This document shows, piece after piece, positions 7,575 to 62,250 of a stretch of DNA of 64,000 bases (the first letter of the stretch is position 1; every line of letters begins with the position of its first letter). The translations under genes and the position numbers were made by a program. The notes beneath the pieces were generated by a model. The model searched no databases, was not told the DNA's origin, and worked only from the letters and a program-made list of their open reading frames with translations. Source of the stretch: Bugula neritina (Eukaryota; Animalia; Bryozoa). Location: the NCBI GenBank assembly GCA_964035545.1, contig OZ037767.1, positions 17,047,781-17,111,780 on the forward strand, read 5' to 3'.

Positions 7575-10500
7575 ATGCTGCCCAGGTGGTTTTCTTGTTC
7601 TGGCCGTCGCAGTGTGAAGCTCAGCTTTCCTGTTGCATTGAGAGTTTCCTTTCTAACACCAGGAACCAACATAGGGGCAGTTGTACAGAGAAGCTGTCAT
7701 GGTGCTAGCAAACCTGCAAAGACGAGACGTAGTGAACTACGCAACTTGTTATCTTTAGCTGAGCCTGAGAAATACAGGCTAACAGGTACAGGGAGTGTTG
7801 AGACTGAATGTGGTTAAATGATATGTTCGTTATTAATATATGTAAGACTGTTTATAAGATGTGGAGTTACCTCCTCAGCAATGACTTTCAACTTGTCATA
7901 CTCTTAGGGGCTGTGGGGCTACTATTTATATCCACTGGCGTTACTATGGCCGTACCGTACGCTGTTGGAGCGTTCATAGACATCATACACACGAGCAATG
8001 CTGACCCAGCTGCTGTTAAAGCCACACTGCTGCCGCTATGCAAAGTGTTAGGAGGGGTGTTCATCATTGGAGCCATGGCTAATTTTGGAAGAGTTTATCT
8101 GATCCAAACATCTGGTATGTCAAGGTTGTTTTAAGGATTTGTGGTGGTTGCAATATTTATTGATTTAGCGCTTTAAATAGAAGATGAGAATTCTAACAAC
8201 TTTACAAAAGTTGTTCAAAGGGTAGAATAGAATATTGGATTGGATTAAAAGGCTTGTAGATTTTTGTTCAAACTTATTAATAATATGATGTGCCAGACAA
8301 ACCTCTCACATTTTTATCCCTGAAGGTCAAAGGTTAGTGCGGAGGTTGAGAGGTCAAGCATTTGAAGCCATCATGAAGCAAGAGACCGCCTTCTTTGACA
8401 AGAACAAGACGGGAGAGTTGGTGAACAGATTGTCAGCTGATACTAGTGTTGTGGCCAACTCTCTCACTCAGAACGTGTCTGACGGACTGAGGGCTGGTGT
8501 CACTGCTACAGCCAGTACAGCTATGATGGTGCAGTAGTAATATATAGTACTCACCTAGTAATATATAGTACTCACCTAGTAATATATAGTACTCATCTGG
8601 TAGTATATAGTACTCATCTGGTAATATATAGTACTCACCTAGTAGTATATAGTACTCACCTAGTAATATATAGTACTCACCTAGTAGTATATAGTACTCA
8701 CCTAGTAATATATAATACTCACCTAGTGATATATAGTACTCACCCAGTAGTATGTAGTATTATACTAATAGTATATAGTATCAATTTGGTAATACATGCA
8801 TATATATTAATTTAGTAATGTATTTGATGATATCGTAATATATATTTTTAGGTTTGTAATAAATATGATTAAGTTAGTAATATATATGATAAAGTTAGTA
8901 ATATATATATTCCAGATATACACCTCACCACTTCTATCCTTACTCGGCCTCGCCATTGTTCCAATAGTCGGCATTATGTCTGTTCCATTTGGTCGTTATC
9001 TCAAACGCTTGAGTAGGAATGTGCAAGACAACCTTGCTCAGTCTACGCAGGTAAGTTCCCTCTTAGGTTCATATACGCAGGTAATAGTATTGACAATTTT
9101 GCTCTGTTATGTGTCTATACCATACTCAAGGGTGTTTAATACAGTACATAGTGTATATATAGCAGTGCCACATATATATAGTATATATATAGTATATATG
9201 TGGCACTGCTATGTGTGATAGTGTTGAACTTATAATTGTAGTTTAAATAATGTAAAGGTATAAGTTTGGTTTGTGTGCTGATGAGCTATAAATGTTAAAC
9301 ACTGTATATTCACCACCTGTATATTCACCTGTATACTCACCTGTATACTCACCTGCATACTCACCAGGTAGCGGAAGAGAGGCTGTCCAACATCCGAACT
9401 GTGAGGTCATTTGGCAGAGAGATGTACGAAGTGGAGAAATATAACAGCAGAATTCAGAAGGTTCTGGAAGTGTCGTACTCTGAATCTCTGGCTAGAGCTT
9501 GCTTCTTTGGGCTCACAGGTCTGCAACACTTTACCTGAGTTGTCCTTCCTTTTCACTTGCAGATTGGATAGATAACTCCTTAGCACATGTACATGACCCT
9601 CTCTAGTTTCAATACTATTACCAGGAGGTTTTCATAGGTTAATACTTCTACAATTAATACATGAGAACTGCAATATGTTACAGGCTGCAAGAATTCACTG
9701 CTCATTACTTATACAGGTGCAGATAACTTCCAGCTAACTGTATCAGAATTCCCCATTTTTCCTCTAAGATAGAATAATTCTAAATTTTTGTGGTGTTCTT
9801 GATGATACGCTACGATATGATACTGTGATATGATATACTATGATATGATAGACTGTGATATGATATCCTGTGATATGATATCCTGTGATATGATATACTG
9901 TGATATGATACACTGTGATATGATATACTGTGATATGATATACTGTGATATGACACACTATAATACGGTATATGACATGCAGGTCTGATAGGAAATGGTC
10001 TAGTGATAGCCGTGCTAGGAGGAGGGGGTATGCTCGTATCGTCTGGTTCCATCACAGTGGGCCAACTTTCCTCCTTTATGCTCTACGTAGTCTTCACTGG
10101 CACCTCAGTCAACGGTCTCAGCTCCTTCTACGCTGAGCTCATGAAAGGTAGTGCTTCTCTTATTGGCTCTCCTCAAACCCCTTATTCAATCAGATGCTGG
10201 TTTAGTTATCCTGTGTGTTTAGTCACTCCTTACTGTCTATTTGTTATGTAGTGAAGTGATTGTTTACACGTAATGTGTGTTCTGCAGTTTTATTGGCTGC
10301 TGTGGTGTTTATCGTCCAATGAGCTGATTTGTATGTTATTCTACAGGTCTGGGCTCATCTAGTAGACTGTTTGAGTTAATACACAGAGAGCCTCTCATTC
10401 CTATAGCCCAAGGACTACAACCTCAGGCAGACTTGGTGGGGGATATCTCTATAGACAATATCAGCTTTTCATACCCCACCCGACCTGACATACCCATATT

Positions 10501-12228
10501 CAATGATCTCAGTCTCAAGGTCACAGCAGGTAACCATAGTAACACTCCATCTGGTGTCTATATTGTAGTAGTTGCCAGCCCCTGACGCTGTCATGTGCTG
10601 CTTGGTGTGTTGAGTATTGCGTGTCACTTTACAGGTGAGGTGACGGCTGTCGTAGGTGCCAGTGGCTCAGGCAAATCAACCATAGCGTCTCTCTTACTCA
10701 GACTATATGATATCGAGAGAGGGCAAATCCGAATTGGTGACATGAAGCTAAATGAGCTGAGCCCGCAATGGATCAGAGAGCATATAGGGATGGTGTCACA
10801 GGTAATACATATATAATATCAGAGAGTATATATACACTGTATTATATATAATATCAGAGAGTATACATACATTGTATTATATATAATATCAGAGAGTATA
10901 CATACACTGTATTATATATAATATCAGAGAGTATATATGCATTGTATTATATATAATATCAGAGAGTATACATACATTCTATTATATAAAATATCAGAGA
11001 GTATACATACATTCTATTATATATAATATCAGAGAGTATACATACACTGTATTATATATAATATCAGAGAGTATATATCTACTGTATTATATATAATATC
11101 AGAGAGTATACATTGCAGGAACCTATCCTCTTCTCCACGAGTATCAGAGAGAATATAGCATACGGGGCGAGTGATGACCTCCCCACTGATGATAAGATTA
11201 TAGCTGTGGCCCAACAGGCTAATGCCTGGAGGTGATTCCTTGCTTGTAAAATATTTAAATGAGAGAATTTATAGACAGTAGAGTGTAGACAGTAGAGTAT
11301 AGACAGTAGAATGTAGACAGTAGAGTATAGACAGTAGAATGTAGACAGTAGAGTATAGACAGTAGAGTGTAGACAGTAGAGAGTAGACAGTAAAGTGTAG
11401 ACAGTAGAGAGTAGACAGTAGAGTGTAGACAGTAGAGTATAGACAGTAGAATGTAGACAGTAGAGTGTAGACAGTAGAGTGTAGACAGTAGAGTATAGAC
11501 AGTAGAGTATAGACAGTAGAGTATAGACAGTAGAGTATAGACAGTAGAGTATAGACAGTAGAGAGTAGACAGTAGAGTTTAGACAGTAGAGTGTAGAGAG
11601 TAGAGTGTAGACAGTAGAGTGTAGACAGTAGAGTGTAGACAGTAGAGTATAGACAGTAGAGAGTAGACAGTAGAGTATAGACATTATAATGTAAATCTTG
11701 CAGGTTTATATCAGAATTTCCCGAAGGATTAGACACTCTGGTTGGAGAAAGAGGGGTTATGTTATCTGGAGGCCAGAAACAGAGGGTGGCTTTAGCCAGA
11801 GCCCTTCTTAAAGATCCTAAAATTCTCATCTTGGATGAGGCTACGAGGTGAATAATTAATTGACTGCTTTAAATAGGTGTTAGACTCCTGCTTTACCCCC
11901 TCCTACTGAACATTACATATCTGTGTACACTCCTGCTCTACCCCCTGCTATGTATTACATATCTGTGTACACTCGTTGCAGTGCCTTGGACTCGGAGAGT
12001 GAAAGTCTGGTGCAGCAGGCACTGCAGAGAGTGATGGTTGGTAGGACTGTTGTTGTTATAGCACATCGACTCTCCACCATAAGAAACGCCCACAACATAG
12101 TCGTGTTGTCAGACGGTAAAGTGGCCGAGTCGGGTACATACTCCCAGCTAGTTGATATACCAGACGGATATTTTAGTAACCTTATTATGAGACAGTTGGA
12201 GCTGGAGAATCAGCCAATCACCAACTGA
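7575..12228 (+). CDS. ABCB10: Mitochondrial ABC half-transporter ABCB10 (~641 aa, 11 coding exons)
   Basis: Exons 7575-7785, 7908-8114, 8326-8528, 8916-9050, 9368-9518, 9983-10147, 10347-10529, 10635-10801, 11119-11231, 11704-11847, 11982-12228 (1926 nt, in frame). Arg/Ser-rich presequence; TMD motifs [18 protein letters not shown] and [14 protein letters not shown]; Walker [10 protein letters not shown]; signature LSGGQKQR; Walker [13 protein letters not shown]; H-loop IAHRLST. The ATG directly follows an AG acceptor, so an upstream exon is likely. Confidence 0.92.
8535..8780. repeat. 21-bp intronic minisatellite (tagtaatatatagtactcacc)
   Basis: About 10 copies starting within ~7 nt of the ABCB10 exon 3 donor. 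Confidence 0.9.
9302..9367. repeat. 12-bp repeat (cacctgtatact) whose last copy forms an ABCB10 acceptor
   Basis: 4-5 copies ending actcaccag|GTA at 9367/9368. Confidence 0.8.
9812..9977. repeat. 15-bp minisatellite (tgatatgatatactg) abutting an acceptor
   Basis: About 11 copies ending just before cag| at 9982. Confidence 0.9.
10808..11115. repeat. 35-bp minisatellite filling ABCB10 intron 8
   Basis: Unit atatataatatcagagagtatacatacactgtatt, ~9 copies running from donor to acceptor. Confidence 0.9.
11269..11684. repeat. 14-bp minisatellite (agacagtagagtat)
   Basis: About 30 copies in ABCB10 intron 9; source of the spurious STVYTLL ORFs. Confidence 0.95.
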
Positions 12229-12967
12229 CACACGTCTGTTCAGTCAACACATCTATATCTCTTGAATCTAACACTGTCCAATACTGTCTCCTCACTCTCT
12301 ATGTGTGATGTTATAGAACAGGGTTTTTGGAAACTAAATGTATGTAGGATTATGACAGTATATATTATATTATGTTGTATTACATGATTATCGCGATATT
12401 TATATATGCACAAAGTATCATCTTTTAATTTTTTTATACAAAGTTTTTAAGCTTTAAATTATTAATATTATTGCTTACTGTGCCCTGCTGTACAAAAGTA
12501 AGATGGAATTTCATGGCAGTATTCAATGATTTTTAGGAATAGATTTTTTGGTAACTTTTTAAATTTTTAATAAATCCGTCACCATTTGATGCTCAGAGGT
12601 GAGGGCAAGAAAGAGTAACTGGTTATTGTTGGACAATAAACTGTATTTACTTTTGATTATTTTGGTAAATGATAAAAAAACATCAACAATTCAAAACTAA
12701 TTGACCAACCTACAGTTTCAGTGTAAATAAAGATATCGTAGATATTAGATTTATACTGACAGATTACTAAATATAAATACTCCGTACTTCTAAAGCAAAA
12801 AAATATCAAATGCCATGCAGAGAAGAGTAAAACAGATACCACAAAAAGGTAAGACCAGGTAAAATCAACAGCAAATGAGACATGTAAAGAGATTGACAGG
12901 GAAAAGGGCATACTGTGACATGGTACAAGTAAATATCAGTACTTTGGTGAGAGCTGTATACAGGAGT

Positions 12968-13214
12968 CGACACGTTCCAGCAGGTGCTAGATACGGACAC
13001 ATTCCAGCAGGTGCTAGATGCTGACACATTCCAGCAGGTGCTAGATACGGACACATTCCAGCAGGTGCTAGATGCTGACACATTCCAGCAGGTGCTAGAT
13101 GCTGACACATTCCAGCAGGTGCTAGATGCTGACACGCTCCAGCAAGTGCTAAATGCTGACACATTCCAGCAGGTGCTAGATGCTGACACATTCCAGCAGG
13201 TGCTAGATGCTGAC
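12968..13214. repeat. 27-bp minisatellite overlapping the ADSS stop codon
   Basis: Unit acattccagcaggtgctagatgctgac, ~9 copies; on the minus strand copies carry GTCAGCATCTAG (or the variant GTCCGTATCTAG), the last codons plus stop of ADSS. Confidence 0.92.
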
Positions 13215-15952
13215 GTTGATGACAGAATCCCTTGACTGTCCTACCCCGACATACCGCACTAAAATAAACATTACATTACAAATACATGATACATGCATAT
13301 ATACAGATAATCATGTATTAGCAACAGCCATATATAGAGGCAAACTCACCTGGTATATTCAGTTGTGACTGTATGATTTCCACATACTTCCTGGCATTGT
13401 CTGGCAGGTGCTCAAACTGTCGCACACCTGTGATGTCAGAGCACCAGCCTTCGAGTGTCACATACTCCACTTCTATCAGTTGCATTTCCTCATCACTAGC
13501 TATAAGTTACATCATATAATACAATATACACACCAAGTTATCAAATATCACTATACCGGAAATAATCAACACTTCATAATTCATATTCAACACATAGTAG
13601 TATCAACACTTCATATTCAACACATAGTAATATTCAACACAAGAACACAGACAATATTTACCAGGGAAGTAGTTGATAGGTTTTCCATCCTTCAGATATC
13701 TCGTACAGATTTTCACTTCTTTGAATGTATCCAGTATGTCTAGTTTAGTTATGGCCAGTCTACAGGTACAGAGAGAAGACAACTCAAGGACAGACAACAC
13801 TGCAGTGAATATTCCATAGACCTCTACACTAAAACGTGGTGCTAATAGAGAGAGTCTTACGCTGAGTAGCCGTTTATCATGGCCGTGTGTTTGACTACCG
13901 CCAAGTCCAGCCAACCACAGCGTCTCCTTCGCCCAGTCGTAACTCCGAACTCCTTGCCTATTTCCTGTAGCTTCTCCCCGACTTCCTGCAACACAAGATA
14001 AACAGGCTACTAGCTGTGAGAGTACACAGACTATAAGCTGTTAGAGTACTAGGATCATTTTACTTAATTTAGTACACACTGGATATCTACAGTTTTTGGC
14101 TATTTTTCACGATTTAACTGGTAATGAACATGGTTTTTTGGCAAAAACCAGTAAAACATCAATAAATACACCCAAATAATCAAATTTCTTTTTAATTTTG
14201 CTTCATTTCCCATATTTTTCCTTAATTATTCAGCTAGTTTTGGTTACGGACCGTTACGGTTTTTTCGTAACGTCCGCACATATAGAATATTAAGTGCATA
14301 TGACAATGACCTGTGCTTCAATGTTGGGGAATCCCCTCCCAGCCTTTTCTGTTATGCCTAGTTAAAACCAGCACATAAAAATACCATGTATAGTAAATTT
14401 CAATTACTTTTGAGCAAACTTTAATGTTAGGTCATAAGTTGCTGGTGTGTACTAAATGAAGTAAACTGGCTCAGACTTACACAGGCTACAAACTGTTAGG
14501 GTACACAGGCTACTAGCTGTTAGGGTACACAGGCTACTAGCTGTTAGGGTACACAGGCTACTATGTAGATGTAGAACACATAGACTAAGTTTCAGTGACT
14601 TACATTGAGCTGCTCGGTGGGAAGCACACCCGTACCGACCCGCGTAGTGTAGGCCTTCACCACTCCTATCACGTCTCCCACAGCCCTGCAGGGGATACCC
14701 AGACCAGTGCAGACTCCGCCAATAGAACAGTTGGAGGAAGTGACGTATGGGTATGTACCTGAGTTAGTAGTATAAGCATATGCTAATGAGTAGTATAAGC
14801 ATATGCTAATGAGTAGTATAAGCATATGCTAATGAGTAGTATAAGCATATGCTAATGAGTAGTATAAGCATATGTTAATGAGTAGTATAAGCATATGCTA
14901 ATGAGTAGTATAAGCATATGTTAATGAGTAGTATAAGCATATGCTAATGAGTAGTATAAGCATATGCTAATGAGTAGTATAAGCATATGCTAATGAGCAG
15001 TATAAGCATATGCTAATGAGTAGTATAAGCATATGCTAATTACTATAGCAATACTGATAGAATTCCCATCTGTAGATGAAGCAGACGTACCAAAGTCTAT
15101 ATCCAACATGGTGGCGTTGGCTCCTTCTACAAGGATATGTTTACCAGAAGACAGGCTGGTGTTGAGGAGAGGAATTGTGTCTGTAACCAGAGGTCTAATC
15201 CACTCTCGGTACTCCTGTAGAGTATGTAGAGTGTACAGAGCAGAGTATACAGAGTAGAGTGTACAGAGTATACAGAGTAGAGTATACAGAGTAGAGCATA
15301 CAGAGTATACAGAGTAGAGTATACAGAGTATACAGAGTAGAGTATACAGAGTATACAGAGTATACAGAGTATACAGAGTATACAGAGTACACAGAGTATA
15401 CAGAGTAGAGTATACAGAGTAGAGTATACAGAGTAGAGTACACAGAGTATACAGAGTAGAGTATACAGAGTAGAGTATAGAGAGTATACAGAGTAGAGTA
15501 TAGTAGAGTATAGTAGAGTATAGTAGAGTATACAGAGTATACAGAGTGTACAGAGTATGCAGAGTGTACAGAGTAGAGTATGCAGAGTATACAGAGTATA
15601 CAGAGTAGACTGTAGAGTGTGCAGAGTGTGCAGAGTGTGCAGAGTGTGCAGAGTGTACAGAGTGTACAGAGTGTACAGAGTGTGCAGAGTGTGCAGAGTG
15701 TGCAGAGTGTGCAGAGTATACAGAGTATACAGAGTATACAGAGTATACAGAGTATACAGAGTATACAGAGTATACAGAGTAGAGTATACAGAGTAGAGTA
15801 TACAGAGTAGAGTATACAGAGTAGAGTATACAGAGTAGAGTATACAGAGTAGAGTATACAGAGTAGAGTATACAGAGTAGAGTATACAGAGTAGAGTATA
15901 CAGAGTAGAGTATACAGAGTAGAGTATACAGAGTAGAGTATACAGAGTAGAG

Positions 15953-16050
<98 letters not shown>

Positions 16051-19000
16051 AAGTACCCCTAACAAAGTCTTCAATTCTGACTCCAACTGGAAATCCGTAT
16101 CTGGATAGAGTCTCTGATAATGAGAGCCGAGACTCATAAACCTATAAACATAATATTCTATAGAATAGTACAATATAATACAGTATAAATATAGCACAAT
16201 ATGGTATAACATAGTATATAGATTGAGGACGGGATTTGGAGTTACCTCTCCGAGAACTTAGCTGGGTCACCCAACAGATCACAGACCCTTAGCCCACGTC
16301 GTCCCGTCTTACTTGAGTAAGTTGGACCAATACCTTTCTTTGTGGTTCCCAGACTACAAGAACATGAACTATGAATATATACCTGCATTATGTGAGGATG
16401 TTGCACCAGCATATAGTCTAGACTCTAGAAGTAACCTCCCAAAAAGTGCTCAAAAAATTGGCTTATTACACTTTACTAGGTGGCCACTCAAAAAAAATTG
16501 TTTCTATATCAGAATTTTGTGCTGATTCTGGATCTACAAACTCTAGAATTCTATCTCTACCCAAACTCAAGTTATTGCAAAAAACAAATCGACATCTTGG
16601 ATGGGTGATAAAAAGAAATGTGGATTGTGCAAAATAGTATCCAATTTTATCAAGCTATCTTGAAGAAAAAATATTTGCTGAAATACCAAAAATAATTGCC
16701 TCTTACTTAGAATTCTATGCTGATACTGAATTTAAAGACTGCAAGACGCTATCTCAAATTAAAACCAAGTTGTTTATATAAACATATATGTTTGTTATGA
16801 ATCGCCATATTGCATGCGGCATAAGCATGCAGAATAATTGTATGACCAAGCTATTTATACAAAAATAAAAACAAAGTCATGCTGATGTGTGAAAAAACTA
16901 TATTTATAAAATTGTAGCACAAAATAAATGTTGAAATGAATAAATATTGAAATCTTTTAAGCACAACCCAAGTTAATCATTTGCTAGTCTAGCTGTCAGT
17001 AGCCGTTAGATATCTGCAAAAATCAACAAGATTCTGTAAAATTATTTAGAGGAACAGAAGCATGAGAGATGATCAAAATCAAATTAGTTAGAGCAAAATA
17101 TATAACAAATGTCTAAAAATAGTGCTTAATTATGAAAACCTATTCTCGCGATCACTGTCACTGCCGTCAGTCTCATCAGCTTCTTCCCCAATATAGAGCT
17201 TCTTTTCAGACAATCCTTACATTGACAAACATCAGTGCATGCACTGCATTTGAGACTCCTGACATCCACATTTTGATATGTTGCAACCGGTCTTACAGGA
17301 GCAGTTTAAACTTTGCAATATACATGTTCATGTGCGGAAGCTTGAATCATCTACTTTATATTTATGCTGCCATGATTCTCAACAATCCTTCCATGATGTT
17401 CTGGGGGTGGTGCACCAATATAAGCTGTTGTCACCCTTCTCCAAATGGCTGCCTGATAATTTGCTTGTTTTACGTGCAAATTTAATTCATCTTTTGTTGG
17501 AGGCAAGCTGTATTAAGTTATTTTAGACGGTGAACAAAATATAGTGTATCGGACATTATCTATATTTGAATTTCCTGCTCCATAAAGTTTATAGACAAAT
17601 TGTTCTACTTCAGCCGCTGTAATAGCTTACAGCTTAAAATACTTCCCAAGGTGTTCAAAGCTTCCCATACACTATGGATATTTTTTCAAAAGAGAGTGGG
17701 CTGTGCGCTATCCTTTTCCATAAAAAGCACTATAGTCGAATAACTTATACCTGTTAAAGCATGAAATCTAGTAAGTGTTGCACACAACTGCGGTCTGGAT
17801 TTATTTGCTGCAATATTGGCATCCAAATATCTAATATGATTATGGTTTCCTCCCAGATAGGTTTCTTTTTTATTTTGTTACCATATATATTAATATTACC
17901 TATATAACTGTTGATTTGATTGCTAAATAGCTAATATGCTAATAGCTATAGTAGCTAACATGAATTATCTAGAATAATATTCTATTATTATTACGAATTT
18001 GTGTGGGACAAAAAGTAGTAATACATTAATAATAGACACTTTCTTTAATGAATACTTATTAACAAAATATCTTTTCAAACAATAGGCAAGATGTATAAAA
18101 TATAAAAATTAATAAGTTAATGCAAATCAAAGGAATTTATTTACGTGCTAAATAACAAGCAATTGATCCAAGTTTAATAAATATACATATATTTCAATAA
18201 TATTAAAATAAGTTGCACGTGAAAATACATTTTACCAAAATAAATAATAGCGTCGAAGTAGGAAACTTAGCCTAGCCTCTATCTGACATGACATCATGAT
18301 TACCACACCGTGAAAAAATATAATTGGTAGGAAGGTAATGTTTTGCAAATAGCGAGACTTAAGGTGAAAACATCAACGTGTCTTGAGATTTGATTATTAC
18401 ACGTGAGATTACGATGTTCATAAGATATTTTGCACGTAACAAAGTTTGTGTATCTGCTTCCTCGTGATCTAATTGTAAACATTTGAGTTCTGCTTTCTTA
18501 AGAATTTCACCATGTTTGAAAAATTCTAGTTGAATGCAATTTTTTTTGGTATGCAACAACTATAATAATAATAATATTGTTCTCTAAAATATGTTTACTC
18601 CATGTTTCACACAAAAATGCACCAGTCTCAAACTCAGCTTGTTTTATTTGCTGATAAGAAATTATTATTTTAGTGACAAATGGCACACATGAAAAAAGTA
18701 CATGCCTATGGTCTTTGAATAAAGCAGCTCAAGGTCAATTTTCTAATGGGTGGCCTAAATATAATCACATATATTTTAAATTATAGGGAAGCTTTAGGGT
18801 ATTTCTTCTGTAACTATAAGTGAGCTAAATTGACTCTATAGAGTCATTATATCAAGATAGTATAAAAATATGCATTTTAACCAATAACATTGTTTTAAAA
18901 ACCAAATTGCTTATTTATATATAGTTCAGCTTAAATTTATTGGCAAAGCTCAATCATACACATTTAAAATATTATTTTCCGGAGTCCAGACCAATCTACC

Positions 19001-22000: not shown

Positions 22001-23216
22001 AAGAATTCGGCAATTCTTGCAACCATTGAACGACATACAAAAGCCATTAATTATTACATCAGTGCATGAGTTGCAGGTCACGTGATAATCAGTATATAGT
22101 ATACTGATAGAAGTAGTACTGTATACTAACAGAAGTAATACTGCATAGGTCAATATGGCTGCATCTGTTGACATTCCACAACTATGAATCAAATATGTTT
22201 GGCCAAAATAAAGAAATTAAACTATGAAATGTATTCTATCACCAGAAAAACTAGGTTATCTAAAAGCATGGCATTACTGCGGTACATACCACATACAGGT
22301 ATGTTATTATTGTGGTACATACCATCATATAAAGGAACGGTATTATTGACGTACATACCGAGATGTGCTCTGTCAGATATCACTAGCCGCTTCCGCCAGC
22401 TTACTAGCCCTTTCTCTTCAATGCCCCGTATCTCTTGAAAGAGTCCCGGCAAGTGTATGACGACTCCGTTACCGAGAACAGACAGACAGTTGTCATTGAT
22501 GATTCCGCTGGGAAGGAGATGAAAGAAGTAACTCACTCCATTGACCACTACAGTATGTCCGGCATTGTTTCCCCCCTGCAGTAACATGGTTAGGTTATAT
22601 GGATGACACGCAGATATTCAGTAATCAATACTCATCAGACTTAGTTATACCTTACATTAATTTCAGTTAACCAATTTCGCTAGTTACGGTTACTATCAAG
22701 TTTAACTATTAAGAATAAGTAACTCTACCTGAAACTACTATGCAGATTAGTATTACTACCAGTAGAAGTACTAGTCCACCAATATCAGTAATTATAAAGC
22801 AAATAATAAATAATTATCATACTAATAGTAATACTAATACTTTGGCATTCACATCAGCATTCAGTTTCACATATTGAAAAAAAGTTCAAGCTAAAGTTAG
22901 AACATTTTAATATTATTATAATAAAAATTGTTATTTTGTAATAATATTAATAATTATAATATACCTGATATCATTATGACTATCAGTCAGTGTGACCGAG
23001 ACTCGGACTGAATGTCACAACTCACATGTCCAACTCAGTGAGCAAGTCTTTAAACAATTATAATTAGAATTACAAACTCGGTAATGGTATAACGTTTACC
23101 TGGCATCGACAAACAATATCTTGATTAGATGCAATAAGATCCACTATCTTTCCCTTTCCTTCATCTCCCCATTGAGCACCAAGAACAACGGATACTTGAT
23201 TACTTTGAGAACTCAT
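13203..23216 (-). CDS. ADSS: Adenylosuccinate synthetase (~430 aa, 11 exons)
   Basis: Exons 23216-23100, 22575-22359, 21100-21043, 16353-16246, 16141-16057, 15214-15091, 14758-14604, 13985-13861, 13759-13662, 13499-13350, 13258-13203 (1293 nt, in frame). Motifs: [83 protein letters not shown]. Confidence 0.97.
14070..14454. mobile_element. ~385-bp MITE-like insertion with TAG..CTA termini in ADSS intron 7
   Basis: Inverted termini (att)tagtacacac / gtgtgtacta(aat). It separates two parts of a 24-bp repeat (acacaggctactagctgttagggt) seen at ~14000-14050 and ~14480-14560. TSD ambiguous. Confidence 0.6.
14764..15040. repeat. 23-bp minisatellite (gagtagtataagcatatgctaat) abutting an ADSS acceptor
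   Basis: About 12 copies; most units hold the palindrome agcatatgct. Confidence 0.92.
15217..16045. repeat. Compound 9/14-bp satellite (agagtatac / agagtagagtatac) plus (TA)n
   Basis: Fills nearly all of ADSS intron 5; a ~90-nt TA tract at 15954-16044. Confidence 0.95.
16414..19700 (-). mobile_element. Decayed, internally deleted Academ-type (XPG-encoding, AcademX-like) DNA transposon in ADSS intron 3
   Basis: Termini TAGTCTAGA(ctctaga)AGTAACCTCC / revcomp TAGTCTAGAAGTAACTTCC; inner TIR block attacact..ggtggccac; 3-bp TSD ATA (16411-16413, 19701-19703); ~190-bp imperfect subterminal direct repeats at 19240-19600; coding remnants described in the next feature. Confidence 0.8.
17190..18520 (-). 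pseudogene. Frameshifted XPG/FEN1-like nuclease and Cys8 zinc-finger remnant of an Academ transposon protein
   Basis: Minus-strand translation gives [17 protein letters not shown] (~18465-18367), FHALTG / SAFYGKG* (~17765-17710), [29 protein letters not shown], then CSCKTGC..KCGC..C / [10 protein letters not shown] (~17305-17210), with stops and frameshifts. Confidence 0.8.
19718..21026. repeat. 17-bp satellite (agtagagtatataatat), ~1.3 kb
   Basis: About 77 near-identical copies between the Academ end and the donor of the 58-nt ADSS exon 3. Confidence 0.97.
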
Positions 23217-33229: not shown

Positions 33230-33279
33230 CCCAAGAAGATAAATTAGCAGAACAACTTTCACCAATACTAATTGTGTGC

Positions 33280-53200: not shown

Positions 53201-56200
53201 ATAAAGAAAAATCTAAATTAAAAAATTTTCTAATTTTTCAAATGAGGATTAAATGTAGTCAGGAAAACTGAAGATTATAACTCAAGTGCACATTGTCTGA
53301 GTTGCCTTCTCTTTATTACATAATATTATTCTATTCTAATATTCTAGAGTAGAGAGTGAATAGTGAGAGTAGAGAGTGAATAGTGAGAGTAGAGAGTGAA
53401 TAGTGAGAGTAGAGAGTGAATAGTGAGAGTAGAGAGTGAATAGTGAGAGTAGAGAGTGAATAGTGAGAGTAGAGAGTGAATAGTGAGAGTAGAGAGTGAA
53501 TAGTGAGAGTAGAGAGTGAATAGTGAGAGTAGAGAGTGAATAGTGAGAGTAGAGAGTGAATAGTGAAACTCACCAAACATAAAAGTGTCGAGTCGTCGCC
53601 AAGTAATACCGAGTCGGACAGAGTCGATACTGGAGGTGTTGGTGTTGTAGAATACCGAGCCGTCCGACAGCAGTATCCATATCGAGAGAGAGCATGCTGC
53701 CAAATGAATGACTTTGCAGTCATCACTGTGTTGGATACAGAAAAAATAGTATACTTGTAATAAGTTTAAAGTCACTGTACACAGGTTTAGTATAGAAATA
53801 TTACGTAAACTTCTGCAATGATGTCAAGCTGGTATGCGGTTAATAGTTAGAATACTAATAGTCAGTCAACAGTTAGAATACTAATACTCAGTCAATAGTT
53901 AGAATACTAATACTCAGTCAATAGTTAGAATACTAATACTCAGTCAATAGTTAGAATACTAATACTCAGTCAATAGTTAGAATACTAATACTCAGTCAAC
54001 AGTTAGAATACTAATACTCAGTCAATAGTTAGAATACTAATACTCAGTCAATAGTTAGAATACTAATACTCAGTCAATAGTTAGAATACTAATACTCAGT
54101 CAATAGTTAGAATACTAATACTCAGTTAGAATACTAATACTCAGTCAGTAGTTAGAATACTAATACTCAGTCAATAGTTAAAATACTAATACTCAGTTAA
54201 TAGCTGGAGAGACAAGGTTACGGCTTACACCAAAGTATCTCACCTCACATCAGTGGGGAAGTTCACCCCCAACGCTACGCCCCTTCTGGTGTCGATGTAG
54301 AAAAGCTCTCCACTCTCATACAGAGCAAACACGCTGCCTTCGTCTACCGAACAGATGTCCTTCCATTTAGCTGTGGAGATGAACGCCGACAGGGATAGGG
54401 GCTCCCAACAGTACCCTGCCCATGTTTACAGAGACAGGAAAGTTAGAATCACAGGCTATCAGCACCGAGTCAAGTAGTCAACAGGAAACAGTAAATAGAA
54501 CCAGTTGCAGAAATGAATGAAGGGTCAAGAATAGAAGAAATCTAAACACACTTTGGCATTTTGGAAATTCAACTTGCGTTTGCTGTGAATATTGAAAAAC
54601 AGCAGTGAAAATATCTCATTTGTCTGAAATGATTTAAACCATCTCTAGATATATTACTTTTTTAAAAATAAATTCAGCCAAAATTATTCTATTTTTAACC
54701 CAGAGCAAATAGAGGTGAACAGCATCAGTATAGAATTAATTAAACTACATCAAACAACAGCTCAAAACACAACATGTTGACAATGTTTTATTCTGTAAAA
54801 TGGAGCTGTTAGCATTTAAAATGCTTTAATATGAATTACATAATTATCCCCAGTGCAATTTACACCTCAAATAGATTGGAGTTTTTAGTTCAAGGGAGAT
54901 AATTCTAAAAGCAATAGAAACAATTTTCTTTTAGGGCCAGCAATGTTTAGTTTCAGTGCACAGGCTGTGTGTAGTGGTGACTTTGCTTTAAGTGTTTCTA
55001 GACTTGAACAGAAACTACATTCAGCCTCTTTCCACAGAGAGCTGGAGGTAGTATTTATGGTGTATGAATACATGCCAGGAAACGCTTCAAGTATTAGTGC
55101 ACGTGTACCGATAGCGTGAGTTGAGCAGATTTCCACTTCCTGGTTAGACTGAGAGCACACAATAGCCACAAGGTCTTCAGACACAGCTATAAGTTGGTGA
55201 GGGTGAGCGCTAGCAACTGGCCACTTTCCCCGACTTGAGTTGAGGCTGTAGTTTGATGAAGGGTGTCTCTCGTAGTTCACCTGAAGTTACCATAGGAGTA
55301 GTAACTATAGCAGCAATAGGGGTAGGATGTATACTAGTAGTAGGGGTAGCATGTATACTAGTAGTAGGGGTAGCATGTATACTAGTAGTAGGGGTAGCAT
55401 GTATACTAGTAGTAGGGGTAGTAACTATGCTAGTAGTAGGAGTAGCATGTATACTACTAGTAGGGGTAGCATGTATACTAGTAGTAGGGGTAGCATGTAT
55501 ACTAGTAGTAGGGGTAGCATGTATACTAGTAGTAGGGGTAGCATGTATACTAGTAGTAGGGGTAGCATGTATACTAGTAGTAGGGGTAGCATGTATACTA
55601 GTAGTAGGGGTAGCATGTATACTAGTAGTAGGGGTAGCATGTATACTAGTAGTAGGGGTAGTAACTATGCTAGCAGACTTGGCACAGACCTGCCATATCT
55701 TATGAGAAGAGACTCCAGAACTGCCAACCACCACGTCTGTGATGCACCAGACGATGTCACTCCTGTCTATCACCCAGCAGACGCTGCCGTCTGCACCAAC
55801 GCTGATGTCGGAGATGTTGTTTGCTTCACCAATTTGCTGCCAGTTATCTGAAAGAGTCAGCACGACTTCAGAAATACAGAGAAGTATTGGAGCTGCCGCT
55901 AGTGTCAGCACGTATGTTGGAGCTGAAATTGTATCCATCTGTTGGCAGCTCATATCAACCATGACTGCAGCAGCACTTTAAAAGGTCAAGGATTAAAGAA
56001 CTATTGGCAGAATCTAAATTCTTTCCCACATGGGAGACATAACTCCCAAACTCTCACCACAAACACGGAGCTGCACCTTATACAATACCATGTAGTTGTT
56101 TATACTGCAACGGCTACTGCAATGTATACACACCTTTAGGAGAGCTAGCCTCAGCTACATGGTAGAATATCTCCCCGCTCTTAGAGAGGGCCCACGTAGC

Positions 56201-59200
56201 ACCCGCTCTGCTGCAGATCTTCACGAAGGAGTGTCTGCAGCTTACTTGAACTCCGTGTTTGATTGGTCGATCTTTGGAGAGGTTTGACTGGTACCAGACT
56301 TCGTCATTAGTCTTTATATACCTGCAAGTAATACGGTATTAAAGTAATATATATTACAGTAATATATATTATAATATTGAGTAATACGGTATTACAGTAA
56401 TATATATTGCAATAATATATTACAGTAATATATATTACACTAGGTGTATTTACCAGGCACAGTTCTCATCTACAGCGACAGAGACGACTCCCTCAGCAGC
56501 CTTAGTCCACTTCATATTCGAGGGAGTATATGGGGGGTGTCTGTGGCTGCCCGCATAGGCTGTGCCTTTCTCTACTCTCCATGCTAGGGCACCTGTCACA
56601 GAGTGTCAAACTACTGATAGTACTACGTGATAGTATACACACAGTAATACGTGATAGTAGTACTGTGTGGTAGTAGTACTGTGTGGTAGTAGTACTGTGT
56701 GGTAGTAGTACTGTGTGGTAGTAATACTGTGTGGTAGTAGTACTGTGTGGTAGTAGTACTACGTGATAGTAGTACTGTGTGGTAGTAGTACTGTGTGGTA
56801 GTAGTACTGTGTGGTAGTAGTACTGTGTGGTAGTAATACTGTGTGGTAGTAGTACTGTGTGGTAGTAGTACTACGTGATAGTAGTACTGTGTGGTAGTAG
56901 TACTATTAGTATACTCCATTGATCTCTAGAGTCAACTTACCAGACGGAGCAACAGAGAGGCATTGAGCTCTAAAGTTTGACTTCTTCCACTCCAAGCTGT
57001 AGCCCGAGGACTTAGCGGCCCAGACAGTAGAGTTCCTGTCGGTCACCCAGATGTGTTGCTTAGTGAGGACAATACTGGTGGGTCTAGAGGTCTTTGAATT
57101 CCACGTCTTCCATTTCTCTCTAGCCTGAATAAAATGCTCCACTAGTTATGTTGAATCGGAGGCACATTTGGGAGTTAACTTCTCCCTGAAGGTGAATGCG
57201 TTAATTTATCAAAATGTTAGTGTTAAAGTTTTATAGTTTGTTTATACTGCTTGGCAATTCCATTTGATAGACTGCAAAGTGCCGAGGCCAAAAAGGAAGT
57301 GATGAGCTCACACAGGAAGTGCCGAGCCCGCACAGGAAGTAATGAGCCTACACAGGAAGTGCCAAGCCTACACAGGAAGTGAGATACTCACAAGGAGAGA
57401 GGTGAAAGACAGAGTTGTAGCGAGTGCACTATCCTTAGCCTCAGGCTCTCTAAGTGAGGCCTTGAGAGGGGGCATCTGAGTGACCAGAGCGTCACGCTTG
57501 TATATGTCCTGAAAGTAAGAAACCCATTCTGTGTGTAGCTGAGCTTGACATACATGGTGTATATAATATAGTCAACCCATACTAGAGAGAAGACAACTAC
57601 GTAAGCAATATCTCATTTACTTTGCAAAGTTAAACCTTTGCTCTAGCCTGTCTGGTTCAGCTGTCTTTAATAAAATACATTTCATTATGAAGAAGTGATT
57701 GTGGCATATACTGCACTGTTCAGTGTTGATGAGCAGACAAATCTAGAAACAGATTGCGTTACACACATAGTGTTTATATTATATATAGTATATATAACTT
57801 ATATGATGTAATGTAGGTAATATAATGAGTTTACCTCTTCATCAGAGTCTGACAACTCCTCGCAGACTGAGTTATTCACTGGTCTGCTGGCTACAAATAT
57901 AATATAATAATATGATATAATGTAATATAATATAGTATAATAGTATGATATAATGTAATACAATATAATATCATGCACTATATTTATTTCAATTTAAAAC
58001 TGTATTAAATCCATTTGTTACATAGAAATTCAAACAAGACAGTGATATGCTAAGATGTCCCAAGTTTCAACTCTAACCTTTCACCTCGGCCACACCCTTC
58101 TTCTCTGATGCAACTTGTACTCCCGCAGCATTCTTCTCGGCGCACATTTCCCTCAGCAAGTCGAGAGAGGACTTCCTGTCCGTCTGAGCAGCAGACAACA
58201 AAACATTCAGCCTCTTCAGCAGATCATTCTCCGGCGCATCTGATTGGCTGGTCGAGAGATTGTCAGGTTCTGATTGGCTGGACAACTGGTCATCATTGGC
58301 GCAGGAATTATATGATTGGTCGAGGTTTGCAAGAGGCTCCTGTGATTGGTCAGTCAACAGCAAGCTGTCATTTGATTGGCTAGTCTGAGATGTGCTACTT
58401 TCACTGTGCTGGTCAGCATTACAGTCATCAATAGCTGGTTGAATAATGCTGGAAGGTTCTTCGAGGTCTTCCGAACTATGAGTCAATATTCCATCCTCAA
58501 CAATTTGGTCAGACAACTCCTTGTCACTTTCTGATGAAACTTCCTGACTTTCAGATAACTTGGGTTTAGAAACTGGTTCTGTACTCGTCTCTGTATTAGC
58601 TAGTAACACAACATTCTGATGTCAACAGCAACATTATTATGGAATAAACTCGTTTGAAAATTATATGTCTCAGCTATATAATAAACTTGATACAAAATAT
58701 ATTCACAATAACCATTTTGGCTAACAGCTTGTAGATTTAATCGCACATCAAAGACATCCATGAAACGTGAAAACTAACAGTCACACTGAAGCAACAATCA
58801 ATGAGTAAAAGCCTTAGAACTCACCACCATCTTCCTTTTTATTAGGGGCGAGTCTGATGACCAGACAGTCTTCAGCAGGAGAGTAAGGTTCTGAGGCTAA
58901 CTCAGCGTTGAGCAGAGTTGGTGGTGGTTTGACTGGACCATCCACTTGGTCTGCCTCAGAAGGTGTCTCGCAGTCAGAAGAGTGTCTTTCAGCTTCAGGG
59001 AATGACTGAGACTTCCTAAACAGACAACACATACTAGACCTGACACTAGTATGTCTCTATTCTACAGTATATTCAGTCACACGATACTAGTCTGCGTGAT
59101 TCTATTACTAGTTCTCCATAAAGTATCAGTTGAAACACAATATATTGAAAAATTCAGGTTGCTCATCTGACAGCATATCAATCTGACCGGTTCAGTTTGA

Positions 59201-62200
59201 TCGTGTGATTACATATACAAGAGGTCAAAAGAAAAATTACCAGCTGACAGGTTACAGCCAATCATATGCTATCTTACGGCAGCAACCTGATACGACTCAC
59301 AGACCGTCTCATTCACTTACGTCGAAGGGACAGCATTCTGTATTTTTGTGAAGAAGTTTCCAAACCCCATTTTGACTGACTGACCAACCTGTTTGATGCC
59401 GTCTCCTGACGAGGTCAGCTGCAACAGGAAGTCATCAGACAGAGTCAGCATAGAGAAACAGTCAGCATCGAGAGAGAGTAGTATGAAATAAACCTGCTTT
59501 ATAAAACACCCAATACCCAAGTTGACTGTCACAAATGCATCTGATACCTAGAGCATGAGTTGCAAATATATGACACCTTGTGACACATATTGTATACATG
59601 TGTCACAAGGTATCATAAACCTACCTTTTGCTTTACCATGGTCAGCCGGCCCTGAAACTGTTTAAACTTGCCATCATTGGAGTCTTCTACTGCATCCTGT
59701 CAAATACCAAGACACTTAGAGCACTGTATACACGTGTCATATTCACTTAGAGCACTGCATACACGTGTCATACTCACTTAGAGCACTGTATACACGTGTC
59801 ATATTCACTCAGAGCACTATACACATGTCATACTCACTTAGAGCACTGTATACATGTGTTATACTCACTTAGAGCACTGTATACATGTGTCATACTCACT
59901 TAGAGCACTGCATACACATGTCATATTCACTCAGAGCACTGTATACATGTGTCATATTCACTCAGAGCACTGTATACACGTGTCATATTCACTCAGAGCA
60001 CTGTATACACGTGTCATACTCACTTAGAGCACTGTATACACGTGTCATACTCACTTAGAGCACTGTATACACACGTTTCATACTCACTCAGAACACTGTA
60101 TACACATGTCATGTATAAAACACTATATATAAGTTTAATTTAAGAGTTATATTATTGAAGTTGAAAAGCAGGCACAGACGATCAAGTTTTCTGTATAGCT
60201 TAAAAACTTTTACTTTAAAAAATATACAAAGCAAAGTAATTGAATGGATATTTTTTCAAAAAAAGCTTCACATTCAAAACTAAAAACCGGGTTACCATTT
60301 CTGTTAATGCACTTTTATTGTCTGTAGAGGTTTGTTCATCAGATAGACTAAGTTCTAAGAGATCAGCTGCTTCCACGATAGGGGGCAGGTCCACATCTCC
60401 ATCATTCTACACAGGGAGTAGTATTGTAAGATTAAGTCTTTTCACAGTAATAAATTGAAAGTGAATGGTTAGTATAGGGAAGTAACTGACTGCCACATTG
60501 CAATTCTCCAAGCATCTTCTATACATGTTTAAATCATTACTTCAAGTATGATATACAAATAATTTAATTGCCAACTTGATTTTTCTTCACTACTCAGGTA
60601 GGAGACTAGAGTCTCCCAGTCTTGAGAAAACTTGAGATATACAGAATCTACTTAGCACACCAAATTCTATACTCAAGGAAAAGGTTCCCTTATGAATACA
60701 TTATGCAAGACCAAATAATGTCTAAATGATATATTATATGTTTGTACAAGTCAATAGACCTGAAGTATTCATATGACAGACGATTGCCCGTTCTCATGGC
60801 TACTTAACTCCTTCACATCTATGTACCAGTATGACACACCCCTTCACATGTACCAGTATGACACACCCCCTTCACATGTACCAGTATGACACACCCCCTC
60901 CACATGTACCAGTATGACACACCCCTTCACATGTACCAATATGACACACCCCCTTCACATGTACCAGTATGACACACCCCCTTCACATATACCAGTATGA
61001 CACACCCCCCCTCACATGTACCAGTAAGCCACACCCCTTCACACCCATGTACCAGTATGACACACCCCCTTCATATGTAGCAGTATGACACACACCCCTC
61101 ATATGTAGCAGTATGACACACCCCTTCACATGTACCAATAAGACACACCCCTTCACATGTACCAGTATGACACACCCCTCTACATCCATGTACCAGTATG
61201 ACACACCCTCTTTACATCCATGTACCAGTATGACACACCCTCTTTACATCCATGTACTAGTATGTGGTGCTACTGTAGAAAAACTTGATAATAATTTTGC
61301 ACTATTTGTGACTCATACCTGTTGAGTGGTGGCAGAAGACTCGAGAGTAGTAGTAGAGGTAGAAGTAGTAGTGGAGGTAGAAGTAGTAGTAGAGGTTGGA
61401 ACTGCAGAGCTTTCAGCTGGTGCAGAAAGATTATTTTCAAAGCCTTCTGCTGATTTGGAATCATCAGCTACAAGAGTAACACAACTTCCCTTCACTCTGA
61501 TTACATATTAAAGTCAATCATATATGATAATACTGACTTGTTTCAGTTTGCTGCTCGAGATTTTTGGGAAATTTTGAACTAAGATTTAGTTCCAAGGTAA
61601 CAAATACAATAACTAACAAAAAAAATAACTGTACAACTGGCTAACTGTATAACTAATAACTGTATAACTAATAACTGTATAACTAATAACTGTATAACTA
61701 ATAACTGTATAACTAATAACTGTATAACTAATAACTGTATAACTAATAACTGTATAACTAATAACTGTATAACTAATAACTGTATAACTAATAACTGTAA
61801 AACCTGGGAGGTCACACCTTGCAATATAAAGCTCAACTAGAATAACTAAAACCATGGAACTTGAAGACAAAATTAATTCTCAATTTTTATAGAAGTTTAA
61901 ATTTAAAATGTGAAAACAGGCAAAGTGAAACCGAAAGATGGTGTTGGTGCTAGTAATTTGGAATTTATAAATTGTTACAAAAATAAACAATTAAACTCGT
62001 ATTTGAAAATTTCTTCTTTCAAATGTTTAAAACATGTCCAGAGTGTGATAGAAAATGAATATAGAAGCCTCAGAACAAAATAACTGGAGCTTTCACTTGT
62101 ATGACTATAATCTGCTTACACTGTCTGGCATGAAGGCATGTAGAGTCCGGTTTCATAGAGAGTCTGTGAAGTCTGCGGGTGGTCCCCTCACCCCCGAGTA

Positions 62201-62250
62201 TAAAGATGTCACCAGAACAGCAGGCTACGTCTATTATGGGTAGTGTTAAT
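35247..62250 (-). CDS. TECPR2: Tectonin beta-propeller repeat-containing protein 2 (autophagy adaptor); 5' WD40 exons not found in window
   Basis: 20 phase-compatible exons: 62250-62120, 61467-61319, 60406-60296, 59696-59625 (or 59637), 59418-59321, 59015-58825, 58599-58078, 57890-57835, 57508-57392, 57124-56941, 56592-56454, 56321-56134, 55847-55690, 55280-55109, 54415-54244, 53725-53574, 53016-52868, 51461-51320, 35819-35670, 35389-35247. End of WD40 region (IDVACCSGDIFILGG), acidic Ser-rich linker, TECPR repeats (VWAVDSKANIYARQGIT..IGTSW; GDYWKKIP), C-terminal LIR-type DGDWELL*. Confidence 0.85.
42562..42830 (+). promoter_or_regulatory. TATA-box core promoter of the nested gene
   Basis: TATATAAG at 42798-42805, ~280 nt upstream of the ATG; CACCC/GT boxes gccacaccc (~42563) and gggtgtggc (~42769). 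Confidence 0.55.
43080..46838 (+). CDS. Secreted protein with a chitin-binding type-2 (peritrophin-A)-like Cys domain and a Ser/Thr/Pro mucin-like tail (~308 aa), nested in the TECPR2 intron
   Basis: Exons 43080-43196, 45205-45357, 46045-46278, 46416-46838, all phase 0 (927 nt). Signal peptide LLSRILIILIYFLLNGEVAES; LLCPEE..YFIADDVNSCIYWRC..RMRCAPG..NPC..C; tail ATPILPT..PPTTTVQPTTKPP. An in-frame upstream ATG exists at 43020. Domain assignment is by motif resemblance only. Confidence 0.7.
50438..50618. mobile_element. ~180-bp foldback MITE (Kolobok-like TTAA|AG..CT ends)
   Basis: ~70-bp imperfect inverted arms: accttaaagaatctctgac..atgcagtattaaa..ttcatatata.cttagcta vs the revcomp of 50549-50618. 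Confidence 0.7.
50998..51075. repeat. 16-bp repeat (gcacgagtgaggtatg)
   Basis: About 4.5 copies, ~250 nt into the large TECPR2 intron. Confidence 0.8.
52402..52638. repeat. 49-bp minisatellite
   Basis: atgggttactgacacctcacagcaagtgtttgatgtcaggtgaccttga x~4.8. Confidence 0.9.
53345..53566. repeat. 20-bp perfect minisatellite abutting a TECPR2 donor
   Basis: agagagtgaatagtgagagt x11. Confidence 0.95.
53841..54203. repeat. 26-bp minisatellite
   Basis: aatagttagaatactaatactcagtc x~14. Confidence 0.93.
55293..55674. repeat. 21-bp intronic minisatellite
   Basis: gtagcatgtatactagtagtaggg-type unit, ~16 copies filling the intron 55281-55689. Confidence 0.9.
56616..56905. repeat. 16-bp minisatellite (gtagtactgtgtggta)
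   Basis: About 16 copies filling a TECPR2 intron. Confidence 0.92.
57278..57392. repeat. 20-bp repeat with AGGAAGT in each unit
   Basis: Five copies spaced 20 nt apart, running into the GTGAGT donor at 57391. Confidence 0.8.
59712..60112. repeat. 31-bp minisatellite
   Basis: cacttagagcactgtatacacgtgtcatatt x~13, beginning ~15 nt from an acceptor. Confidence 0.93.
60810..61263. repeat. ~27-31-bp minisatellite (catgtaccagtatgacacaccccttca)
   Basis: About 15 variable copies. Confidence 0.9.
61627..61800. repeat. 15-bp minisatellite (taactgtataactaa)
   Basis: About 11 copies. Confidence 0.92.

What the first reader, a model, noticed from the sequence alone, without database searches (positions are those of the whole stretch)
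7575..62250. Recurrent tandem duplication seeded at exon borders: a series from 2-copy junction duplications to 20-copy decoy splice-site arrays
Seen: a large share of introns in ABCB10, ADSS, PPP1R21 and TECPR2 carry their own, mostly unrelated 12-49-bp tandem array, usually starting within a few to tens of nt of a splice site. In at least ten cases the unit is a copy of the junction itself: donors x2 (9042-9085, 26115-26183, 35641-35690), x3 (22270-22359), x5 (27439-27613); acceptors x~5 (9302-9367, 26540-26713), x~20 (29562-30013); stop codons x8-9 (12968-13214, 35030-35259). Every CDS stays intact if the exon-proximal copy is used. Inference: a local mutational process (e.g. transcription/splicing-coupled lesion repair with slippage or template switching) nucleates duplications at exon edges, and the spliceosome here must choose sites by position/exon definition rather than strength. 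Selection simply removing exonic duplications is the null model.
Basis: partly seen in the sequence, partly recalled or inferred. Interest (0 to 1): 0.85.

Follow-up and report, generated by a model that had tools for sequence, protein, structure and literature searches.

The report
Bryozoan intron minisatellites, some splice-junction "mirages"
In four housekeeping genes of a bryozoan, most introns hold short head-to-tail repeats, and a handful of these copy an exon edge with its splice signal, a repeat type already named "mirage" in lancelets and likely a by-product of unstable repeats in very short introns rather than of a new mutation process aimed at exon borders.

Summary
The arrays are real. 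34 of 56 modelled introns carry a tandem array, and 27 of 44 arrays in short introns start within 20 nt of a splice site. "At least ten junction copies" is overstated. Four are clear exon-plus-signal copies, one is weak, one repeats the donor only, two are intron-end arrays without exon sequence, and two span stop codons. Junction-crossing arrays (5 of 44) are no more common than random placement predicts (5-11). With arrays collapsed, the bias towards intron ends vanishes overall and stays modest in longer introns (p 0.006-0.10). Runs about 7% diverged hold about two acceptor copies where the window has 20, and about 2.6 stop copies against 8, so the two-copy-to-array series is supported. RNA contigs of that lineage match the exon-proximal models, but no RNA from the window's own alleles was tested. 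The junction arrays match amphioxus "mirages" and the human F7 intron-7 repeat, and this scan has found the same pattern in other genomes. A splicing- or transcription-coupled origin has no support: there is no strand bias, and stop codons are copied too.

The parts
7575..12228 (+). ABCB10-like gene, 11 coding exons, 10 introns, 7 with arrays or a sub-threshold junction copy counted separately
Evidence: Open frame; ABC_tran hit; all 10 introns matched by RNA contig joints.
13203..23216 (-). Adenylosuccinate synthetase gene, 11 coding exons
   Evidence: PF00709 on three exons; open frame; introns 6-10 matched by RNA joints
24704..33229 (+). PPP1R21 gene, 18 coding exons
   Evidence: PF21636; 59% identity over full length to the Watersipora subatra protein; exons 5-16 equal in length to an RNA contig
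35247..62250 (-). TECPR2-like gene, 20 modelled exons, 5' part not modelled; the 15.5-kb intron 18 is unverified
   Evidence: Hyd_WA and Tectonin hits on one exon; open frame; last acceptor matches an RNA piece end
9042..9085 (+). Two-copy degenerate copy of the ABCB10 exon 4 end plus donor, 30 nt apart
   Evidence: 8 of 10 exon nt matched; stack; RNA uses the first donor
9302..9367 (+). 12-nt array ending at the ABCB10 exon 5 acceptor; upstream copies lack AG, so not a decoy array
12969..13214 (-). 27-nt x9 array that begins with the last ADSS codons and the stop; lies in the 3' UTR
   Evidence: DNA run X3 and RNA run X9 contigs end inside it
22273..22359 (-). 33-36-nt x3 repeat of the ADSS intron 2 start; donor repeated, one exon base only; decoys score higher than the real donor
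   Evidence: scores 8.0 and 7.7 against 1.8
26114..26183 (+). 32-nt x2 copy of the PPP1R21 exon 3 end plus donor; 4-nt microhomology at the seam
26536..26713 (+). 38-nt x4.7 intron array abutting the PPP1R21 exon 5 acceptor; no exon sequence in the unit
27439..27652 (+). 35-nt x5 copy of the PPP1R21 exon 7 end plus donor, followed by a 13-nt x3.5 donor-bearing array; the last 35-nt copy has a stronger donor (12.4 against 7.6)
29562..30013 (+). 22-nt x20.5 copy of the PPP1R21 intron 11 end plus 7 exon nt; about two copies in the diverged lineage
   Evidence: joint 29572 to 30001 with 11 letters between in X2 and X3
30490..30628 (+).
   Evidence: array also present in X2 and X3
33279..33405 (+). 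18-nt x7 array in the PPP1R21 3' UTR, 50 nt after the stop; about 91 nt shorter in the RNA of the diverged lineage
   Evidence: arithmetic table 8 against the model
35032..35259 (-). 28-nt x8 array that begins with the last TECPR2 codons and the stop; about 2.6 copies in the diverged lineage
   Evidence: joint 34896 to 35191 with 141 letters between in X2, X3 and X8
35641..35690 (-). Weak two-copy repeat of the TECPR2 exon 19 end plus donor
   Evidence: 7 of 10 exon nt
8535..61803 (.). About 40 further intron arrays (period 10-49 nt) wholly inside introns, for example 8535-8780, 10809-11113, 11272-11683, 14766-15040, 15217-15953, 19719-21020, 25121-25982, 32731-33130, 53346-53566, 55317-55661, 59713-60112, 60821-61249

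Best explanation
These are locus-born minisatellites in a compact bryozoan gene cluster, and the few that span a splice junction are "mirage" repeats, likely left where short random duplications happened to straddle an exon edge and were tolerated. Inferred steps: (1) slippage at short microhomologies makes two-copy seeds; (2) further slippage or unequal exchange amplifies some seeds quickly, with copy-number differences shown between lineages about 7% apart; (3) selection removes seeds inside coding sequence and those that break splicing; (4) because the underlying introns are only about 50-300 nt, survivors lie near a splice site, and arrays probably also replace unique intron sequence while insertions pad the intron middle; (5) decoys likely stay silent through ordinary exon definition and first-donor choice, with nearly all mis-splices giving early stops.
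For: Junction crossing is 5 of 44 against 5.0-11.3 expected. Position rank within collapsed short introns is 0.50 (n=44, p 0.46). If ancestral introns were 134 nt or shorter, 28.7 of 44 arrays are expected within 20 nt of a splice site, against 29 observed. 10 of 34 array introns collapse below the shortest array-free intron (87 nt), and 14 of 44 arrays have both flanks <=50 nt against 1.1 expected, which points to replacement of unique sequence. Two-copy state in X2 and X3 against x20 in the window; stop array about 2.6 against 8 copies. 4-nt microhomology at the seam of the 26114 duplication. No strand bias. Stop-spanning arrays in 2 of 4 genes. RNA contigs fit the exon-proximal models. 18 of 19 decoy uses tested in PPP1R21 give early stops; one donor (+105 nt) keeps the frame (the +6 row is a second AG inside the last unit and is not counted). 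Precedent: PMC3087553 section 16, PMC3902484 passage, PMC1557585 abstract and discussion.
Against: Array density falls with distance from coding exons: 5.75 per collapsed kb within 50 nt, about 1.8 at 51-200 nt, 0.41 beyond 1 kb (binomial p 1e-4 and 3e-4). In introns that collapse to 150 nt or more, arrays still lean to the ends (mean rank 0.35-0.38, p 0.002-0.03). After removing two insertions absent from X3 the lean is 0.34-0.43, p 0.01-0.10. With ancestral lengths drawn from all 22 array-free introns, only 12-17 of 44 arrays are expected near a site against 29. Repeated 8-mers outside arrays are in excess within 100 nt of exons (15 against 6.1 +/- 2.5), though most are 30-60 nt apart and need not be duplications. 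The RNA comes from the diverged lineage, so site choice among 20 or 5 decoys was not tested. Direction of change rests on one comparison lineage.
Confidence: 0.65

Rival explanations
1. Short tandem duplications arise more often on and beside coding exons (for example through exon-centred chromatin, methylation, repair or recombination). Selection clears the coding part and leaves a halo of arrays at exon and stop-codon edges. The reader's splicing- or transcription-coupled repair is one version of this.
For: Density gradient of about 14-fold. End bias in longer introns. The two longest introns carry arrays 22 and 41 nt from an end. Three of four 3' UTRs have an array at or within 50 nt of the stop. 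DNA 7-50 nt from exons resembles the units in make-up (AA/TT 0.174 against 0.240 far away and 0.096 in units).
Against: Junction-crossing arrays, which should be most common under an exon-centred peak, are not enriched. No strand asymmetry. Far DNA is confounded with young insertions: X3 lacks 267 nt in PPP1R21 intron 7 and a high-copy element in ADSS intron 7. Unmodelled exons may lie in the far class. One window, four genes.
Confidence: 0.22
2. The arrays are kept because they do something: they tune splicing, send transcripts to decay, or hold introns above a minimum size.
For: Several decoys score at or above the real site. One decoy donor keeps the frame (+35 aa). Ten array introns would be under 87 nt without the repeats, so the repeats now supply intron length.
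Against: Arrays differ between close lineages. Units are unrelated. The orthologous PPP1R21 stretch of a more distant relative has no array (L001, 2 weak TRF rows in 2325 nt). RNA contigs show only the normal joints, although contigs drop rare forms.
Confidence: 0.08
3. The arrays are assembly artefacts.
For: Raw long reads were not available. Run X1, which holds the arrays, may be the sample behind the window.
Against: Units carry patterned variants. Contigs of a diverged lineage run into the arrays at 10809, 11272, 12969 and 14766 and loop at 11899-11974 and 30490-30569, and an RNA contig ends inside the ADSS stop array.
Confidence: 0.02

Closest known systems
Amphioxus 'mirage' minisatellites: Adh3, globins BflGb6 and BflGb9, troponin C, PGBD5 (PMC3087553, section 16 read whole plus passages; PMC3902484, one passage; the original Adh paper PMC117041 was not held and was seen only as a cited title)
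   Same: Tandem units spanning an exon-intron boundary at either end; unit sizes inside the 10-72 bp given for Adh3; copy number varies; many but not all copies keep GT or AG; normal splicing reported; origin stated as unclear.
   Different: A bryozoan rather than a lancelet. Junction arrays are a minority among many purely intronic arrays. Two arrays span stop codons. Variation is seen here between lineages; haplotype and somatic variation were not tested.
Human F7 intron 7 37-bp VNTR (PMC1557585; abstract and discussion read)
   Same: The first unit holds the exon-intron junction, followed by identical functional pseudo-donors; only the most upstream is used, even against stronger ones. The 27439-27613 array has the same layout.
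   Different: F7 was tested with constructs; site choice here is inferred from frame, homology and RNA contigs of a diverged lineage. F7 says nothing about acceptor arrays such as 29562-30013.
Minisatellite-driven changes of gene structure in human paralogues (PMC2812944; outline and section 9 read)
   Same: Units of about 30 bp with a few copies; slippage or unequal crossover named as the driver.
   Different: That study concerns changed gene structures in segmental duplications; here the modelled coding sequences are unchanged.

Membership tests
Mirage minisatellite | Tandem unit spans an exon-intron boundary | tested here: met
   Met for 26114, 27439, 29562 and 9042; weak for 35641; donor only for 22273; not met for 9302 and 26536
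Mirage minisatellite | Copies keep GT or AG signals that could act as cryptic sites | tested here: met
   4 equal-or-stronger donors listed at 27439 (5 counted with the 13-nt array) and 14 equal-or-stronger acceptors at 29562
Mirage minisatellite | Length instability between alleles or lineages | tested here: met
   About 2 against 20 copies at 29562, and about 2.6 against 8 at 35032, between the window and runs X2 and X3; between lineages, not shown within one population
Mirage minisatellite | Normal splicing is kept | tested here: inconclusive
   RNA contigs match the models but come from the diverged lineage, and contigs drop minor forms
Mirage minisatellite | Somatic instability (reported for Adh3) | not testable with these tools
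   Needs single-molecule reads from one colony
F7-type donor VNTR with first-site choice | The most upstream donor is used while downstream copies are functional but silent | tested here: inconclusive
   The first donor is the only one that gives the RNA-matched length; function of the decoys was not tested
   5 of 44 against 5.0-11.3
   GC skew positive in 19 of 44, purine-rich in 17 of 44; splice-like motifs equal on both strands, Wilcoxon p 0.96 and 0.44. A mechanism without a compositional strand signature is not excluded.

The most novel reading that the evidence does not exclude
This bryozoan lineage has a mutational process that makes 10-50-nt tandem duplications several times more often in the 50 nt beside coding sequence than elsewhere, and the resulting minisatellites take over whole introns within a few percent of divergence. 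Sister lineages with 2 against 20 identical acceptors would then be a natural experiment on both exon-centred mutation and position-based splice-site choice.
Probability: 0.2. Interest if true: 0.65.

Novelty: new member of a known kind. Interest (0 to 1): 0.3.

Why it matters
As it stands, this is a dense example of a described but little-studied repeat type in a phylum where my searches found no report of it (two bryozoan genome papers searched do not discuss intron repeats). It adds a direct view of a two-copy junction duplication in one lineage and a 20-copy array at the same site in another. It also matters for annotation, since 42% of short-intron DNA is array and decoys can mislead gene predictors. 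If the residual excess beside exons held genome-wide after controls, it would point to an exon-centred bias in duplication mutations, which would be a real finding and would bear on how introns grow and how new introns arise.

Tried and rejected
No whole genome is held, so no genome-wide test was possible. No RNA holder close to the window's own alleles was listed; this is no evidence on expression. A homologue search with a TECPR2 exon found nothing. The metagenome scan gave one orthologous contig, L001. Hairpin seeding: 21 of 44 units hold a 6-bp palindrome against 16.2 expected (z 1.6), not supported. Selection against strong sense-strand decoys: no sense-antisense difference. The inverted-repeat scan was swamped by a TA run and did not help to map insertions. 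Thirteen frames from the long TECPR2 and ADSS introns gave no Pfam hit above cut-off, so nested genes were neither shown nor excluded. The 11787-to-12943 joint has only 21 letters on one side and was set aside as a chance match. Both read-laying outputs were cut (44 and 28 joints not shown), so the state of the x5 donor array and of 26114-26183 in X2 and X3 was not seen. TECPR2 exons 1-18 were never laid. PMC117041 and PMC1783408 are not held. Searches listed no genome-wide study of minisatellite position against splice sites in invertebrates; most subscription papers are not covered, and no supplements were read.
Full report
What the window is. The DNA is eukaryotic and about 35% G+C. A PPP1R21 exon finds one homologue, from the bryozoan Watersipora subatra (68% over the exon; 59% over the whole modelled protein), so the window is most likely from a bryozoan. 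No whole genome is held. I modelled four genes by coordinates: an ABCB10-like transporter, adenylosuccinate synthetase, PPP1R21 and a partial TECPR2-like gene. All 56 introns are GT-AG and all frames are open. RNA contig joints match 15 of 15 modelled introns in 7500-15200. For PPP1R21, four intervals between anchors of one RNA contig equal the model exactly, 1718 steps in all. TECPR2 rests on frame alone, apart from its last acceptor.

The observation. Tandem Repeats Finder gives 113 rows, which merge to 63 arrays at score 50 or more and period 7 or more. 53 of these lie in modelled introns, 44 of them in introns under 1.5 kb. 34 of 56 introns carry an array, and arrays make up 42% of short-intron bases. 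27 of 44 start within 20 nt of a splice site. Units are mostly unrelated (24 of 1953 pairs share 10 nt or more), although very high summed depth over some arrays in other runs suggests that several low-complexity motifs recur elsewhere in the genome. The clear ones are true duplicates: decoy donors matching 8 or more of 10 exon bases number 3 against 0.22 expected when exon ends are swapped between introns.

Is it real, and how old? Two DNA runs from two studies (X2, X3) come from a lineage about 7% diverged (43 differences in 573 nt). RNA run X9 shares 23 of 24 listed differences in ABCB10 exons 1-2 with X3, and RNA run X8 shares the 34896-35191 joint with X2 and X3, so both RNA runs belong with that lineage. 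In X2 and X3 a single contig crosses the x20 acceptor array, skipping 428 nt with 11 letters between and 225 nt on the shorter side. This leaves about two acceptor copies. Depth over 29564-29887 is under 2 in X2 and X3 against 168 in X1. The TECPR2 stop array is about 153 nt shorter (about 2.6 copies) in X2, X3 and X8. Other arrays are shared: X3 contigs run into and stop within the arrays at 10809, 11272, 12969 and 14766 and loop at 11899-11974, and X2 and X3 loop at 30490-30569. So the arrays are not artefacts, and two-copy and many-copy states exist at one site. Direction (expansion in the window's lineage) is inferred from the 95% identity of the copies, not from an outgroup. X1 may be the source sample and is not counted as independent. 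A more distant orthologous contig has no array (L001).

Are duplications seeded at exon borders? I collapsed each array to one unit and asked where the unit sits. Junction-crossing arrays number 5 of 44. Random placement predicts 5.0 to 11.3, depending on how much intron a unit must hold and on a floor for ancestral length. Adding the two sub-threshold cases (7) is still not an excess (P 0.22-0.98). Within short introns the mean position rank is 0.50 when crossing is allowed, and 0.36 (p 0.0005) when only intron-internal placement is allowed. In the subset that collapses to 150 nt or more, arrays lean to the ends (0.35-0.38, p 0.002-0.03). Removing two insertions that X3 lacks weakens this to p 0.01-0.10 (the ADSS insertion length is my estimate). 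The count near splice sites (29 of 44 in collapsed distances) exceeds a null built from all 22 array-free introns (12-17) but equals a null built from the 8 shortest (28.7). The verdict therefore depends on ancestral intron length. Ten of 34 array introns collapse below the shortest array-free intron, and 14 of 44 arrays have both flanks at or under 50 nt against 1.1 expected. This suggests that arrays replace unique sequence until the splice signals stop them, or that they favour minimal introns. Density does fall from 5.75 per kb within 50 nt of exons to 0.41 beyond 1 kb, but far DNA is confounded with insertions and possibly with unmodelled exons. No transcription-strand signature appears, and palindromes are not enriched. 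The stop-codon arrays show that edges of coding sequence, not splice sites as such, bound the survivors. That fits a selection filter, though their closeness to the stop also fits an exon-centred bias.

How splicing copes. With a weight matrix from the window's own junctions, several decoys equal or beat the real site: the last copy at 27612 scores 12.4 against 7.6, the ADSS intron 2 decoys 8.0 and 7.7 against 1.8, and 14 acceptors in the x20 array at or above 8.8. In PPP1R21, 18 of 19 decoy uses tested give early stops and one keeps the frame. RNA contigs of the diverged lineage follow the exon-proximal models, including past the two-copy acceptor and the array after exon 13. This has not been shown for the window's own alleles, and contigs hide minor forms. 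The inferred mechanism is ordinary exon definition and first-donor choice, with decay of mis-spliced transcripts.

Comparison with what is known. Tandem repeats spanning exon-intron boundaries are described in amphioxus as mirages, with 10-72-bp units at Adh3, variable copy number and normal splicing; their origin is stated to be unclear (PMC3087553, section 16; PMC3902484, passage). The human F7 intron-7 repeat shows by experiment that only the most upstream of several functional donors is used, even against stronger ones (PMC1557585, abstract and discussion). I reached this match before consulting earlier scan notes; those notes report the same pattern in several other genomes and none for this genome. 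My searches found no paper on it in bryozoans and no genome-wide positional study in invertebrates, within the limits of the library.

Verdict. The feature is real and dense, and the junction-spanning part is a new instance of a known kind. The proposed junction-seeking mechanism fails the two tests that could be run. A modest excess of arrays beside exons is left unexplained and needs a genome-wide test. Interest 0.3.

Noticed in passing
window 14050-14470: High-copy element (summed depth 60,000-90,000 in X3) inside ADSS intron 7, absent at this site in X3. It lies between degenerate copies of the 24-nt unit at about 14000-14050 and the array at 14478-14563, as if it had inserted into an older array.
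   Followed up: partly
window 27693-27959 and 32092-32153: A 267-nt insertion absent from X2 and X3 in PPP1R21 intron 7, and a short high-copy repeat in intron 16.
   Followed up: partly
window 9314-9365 and 27608-27652: Two arrays at unrelated loci share 12 nt on opposite strands. The ABCB10 one reads as a top-scoring donor array on the antisense strand and as branch-point-like words on the sense strand; the array at 8535-8780 also scores high as an antisense donor.
   Followed up: partly
window 9511-9526 and 9975-9990: ABCB10 intron 5 has the same 8 letters at its donor and acceptor (RNA joint ambiguity of 8), a layout expected if an intron arose from a duplicated proto-splice site. Intron position in other animals was not checked.
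   Followed up: no
window 27440-28020: PPP1R21 is 6 residues shorter than the Watersipora protein around the exon 7-8 junction that carries the x5 donor array; the RNA of the diverged lineage has the same length as the model.
   Followed up: partly
window 337-606 and 939-1112, minus strand: Two open frames that look like immunoglobulin-domain exons by eye (label from recall). The surrounding 7 kb has almost no arrays, unlike the four housekeeping genes.
   Followed up: no
window 35820-51319: The modelled 15.5-kb TECPR2 intron has few, weak arrays and several open frames without Pfam hits (42510-42880, 45040-45470, 46390-46910); it may hold unmodelled exons or another gene.
   Followed up: partly
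window 17129-17626: Short frames with Cys-rich motifs inside ADSS intron 3, possibly a decayed transposon; the two frames scanned gave no Pfam hit.
   Followed up: partly
window 50447-50610, 5881-5979, 9160-9212: Imperfect inverted repeats of 76 and 45 nt and a hairpin-like stretch in ABCB10 intron 4 seen by eye.
   Followed up: no
window 61346-61396: An in-frame 18-nt repeat inside a modelled TECPR2 exon (Thr/Ser-rich), the only array wholly within coding sequence.
   Followed up: no
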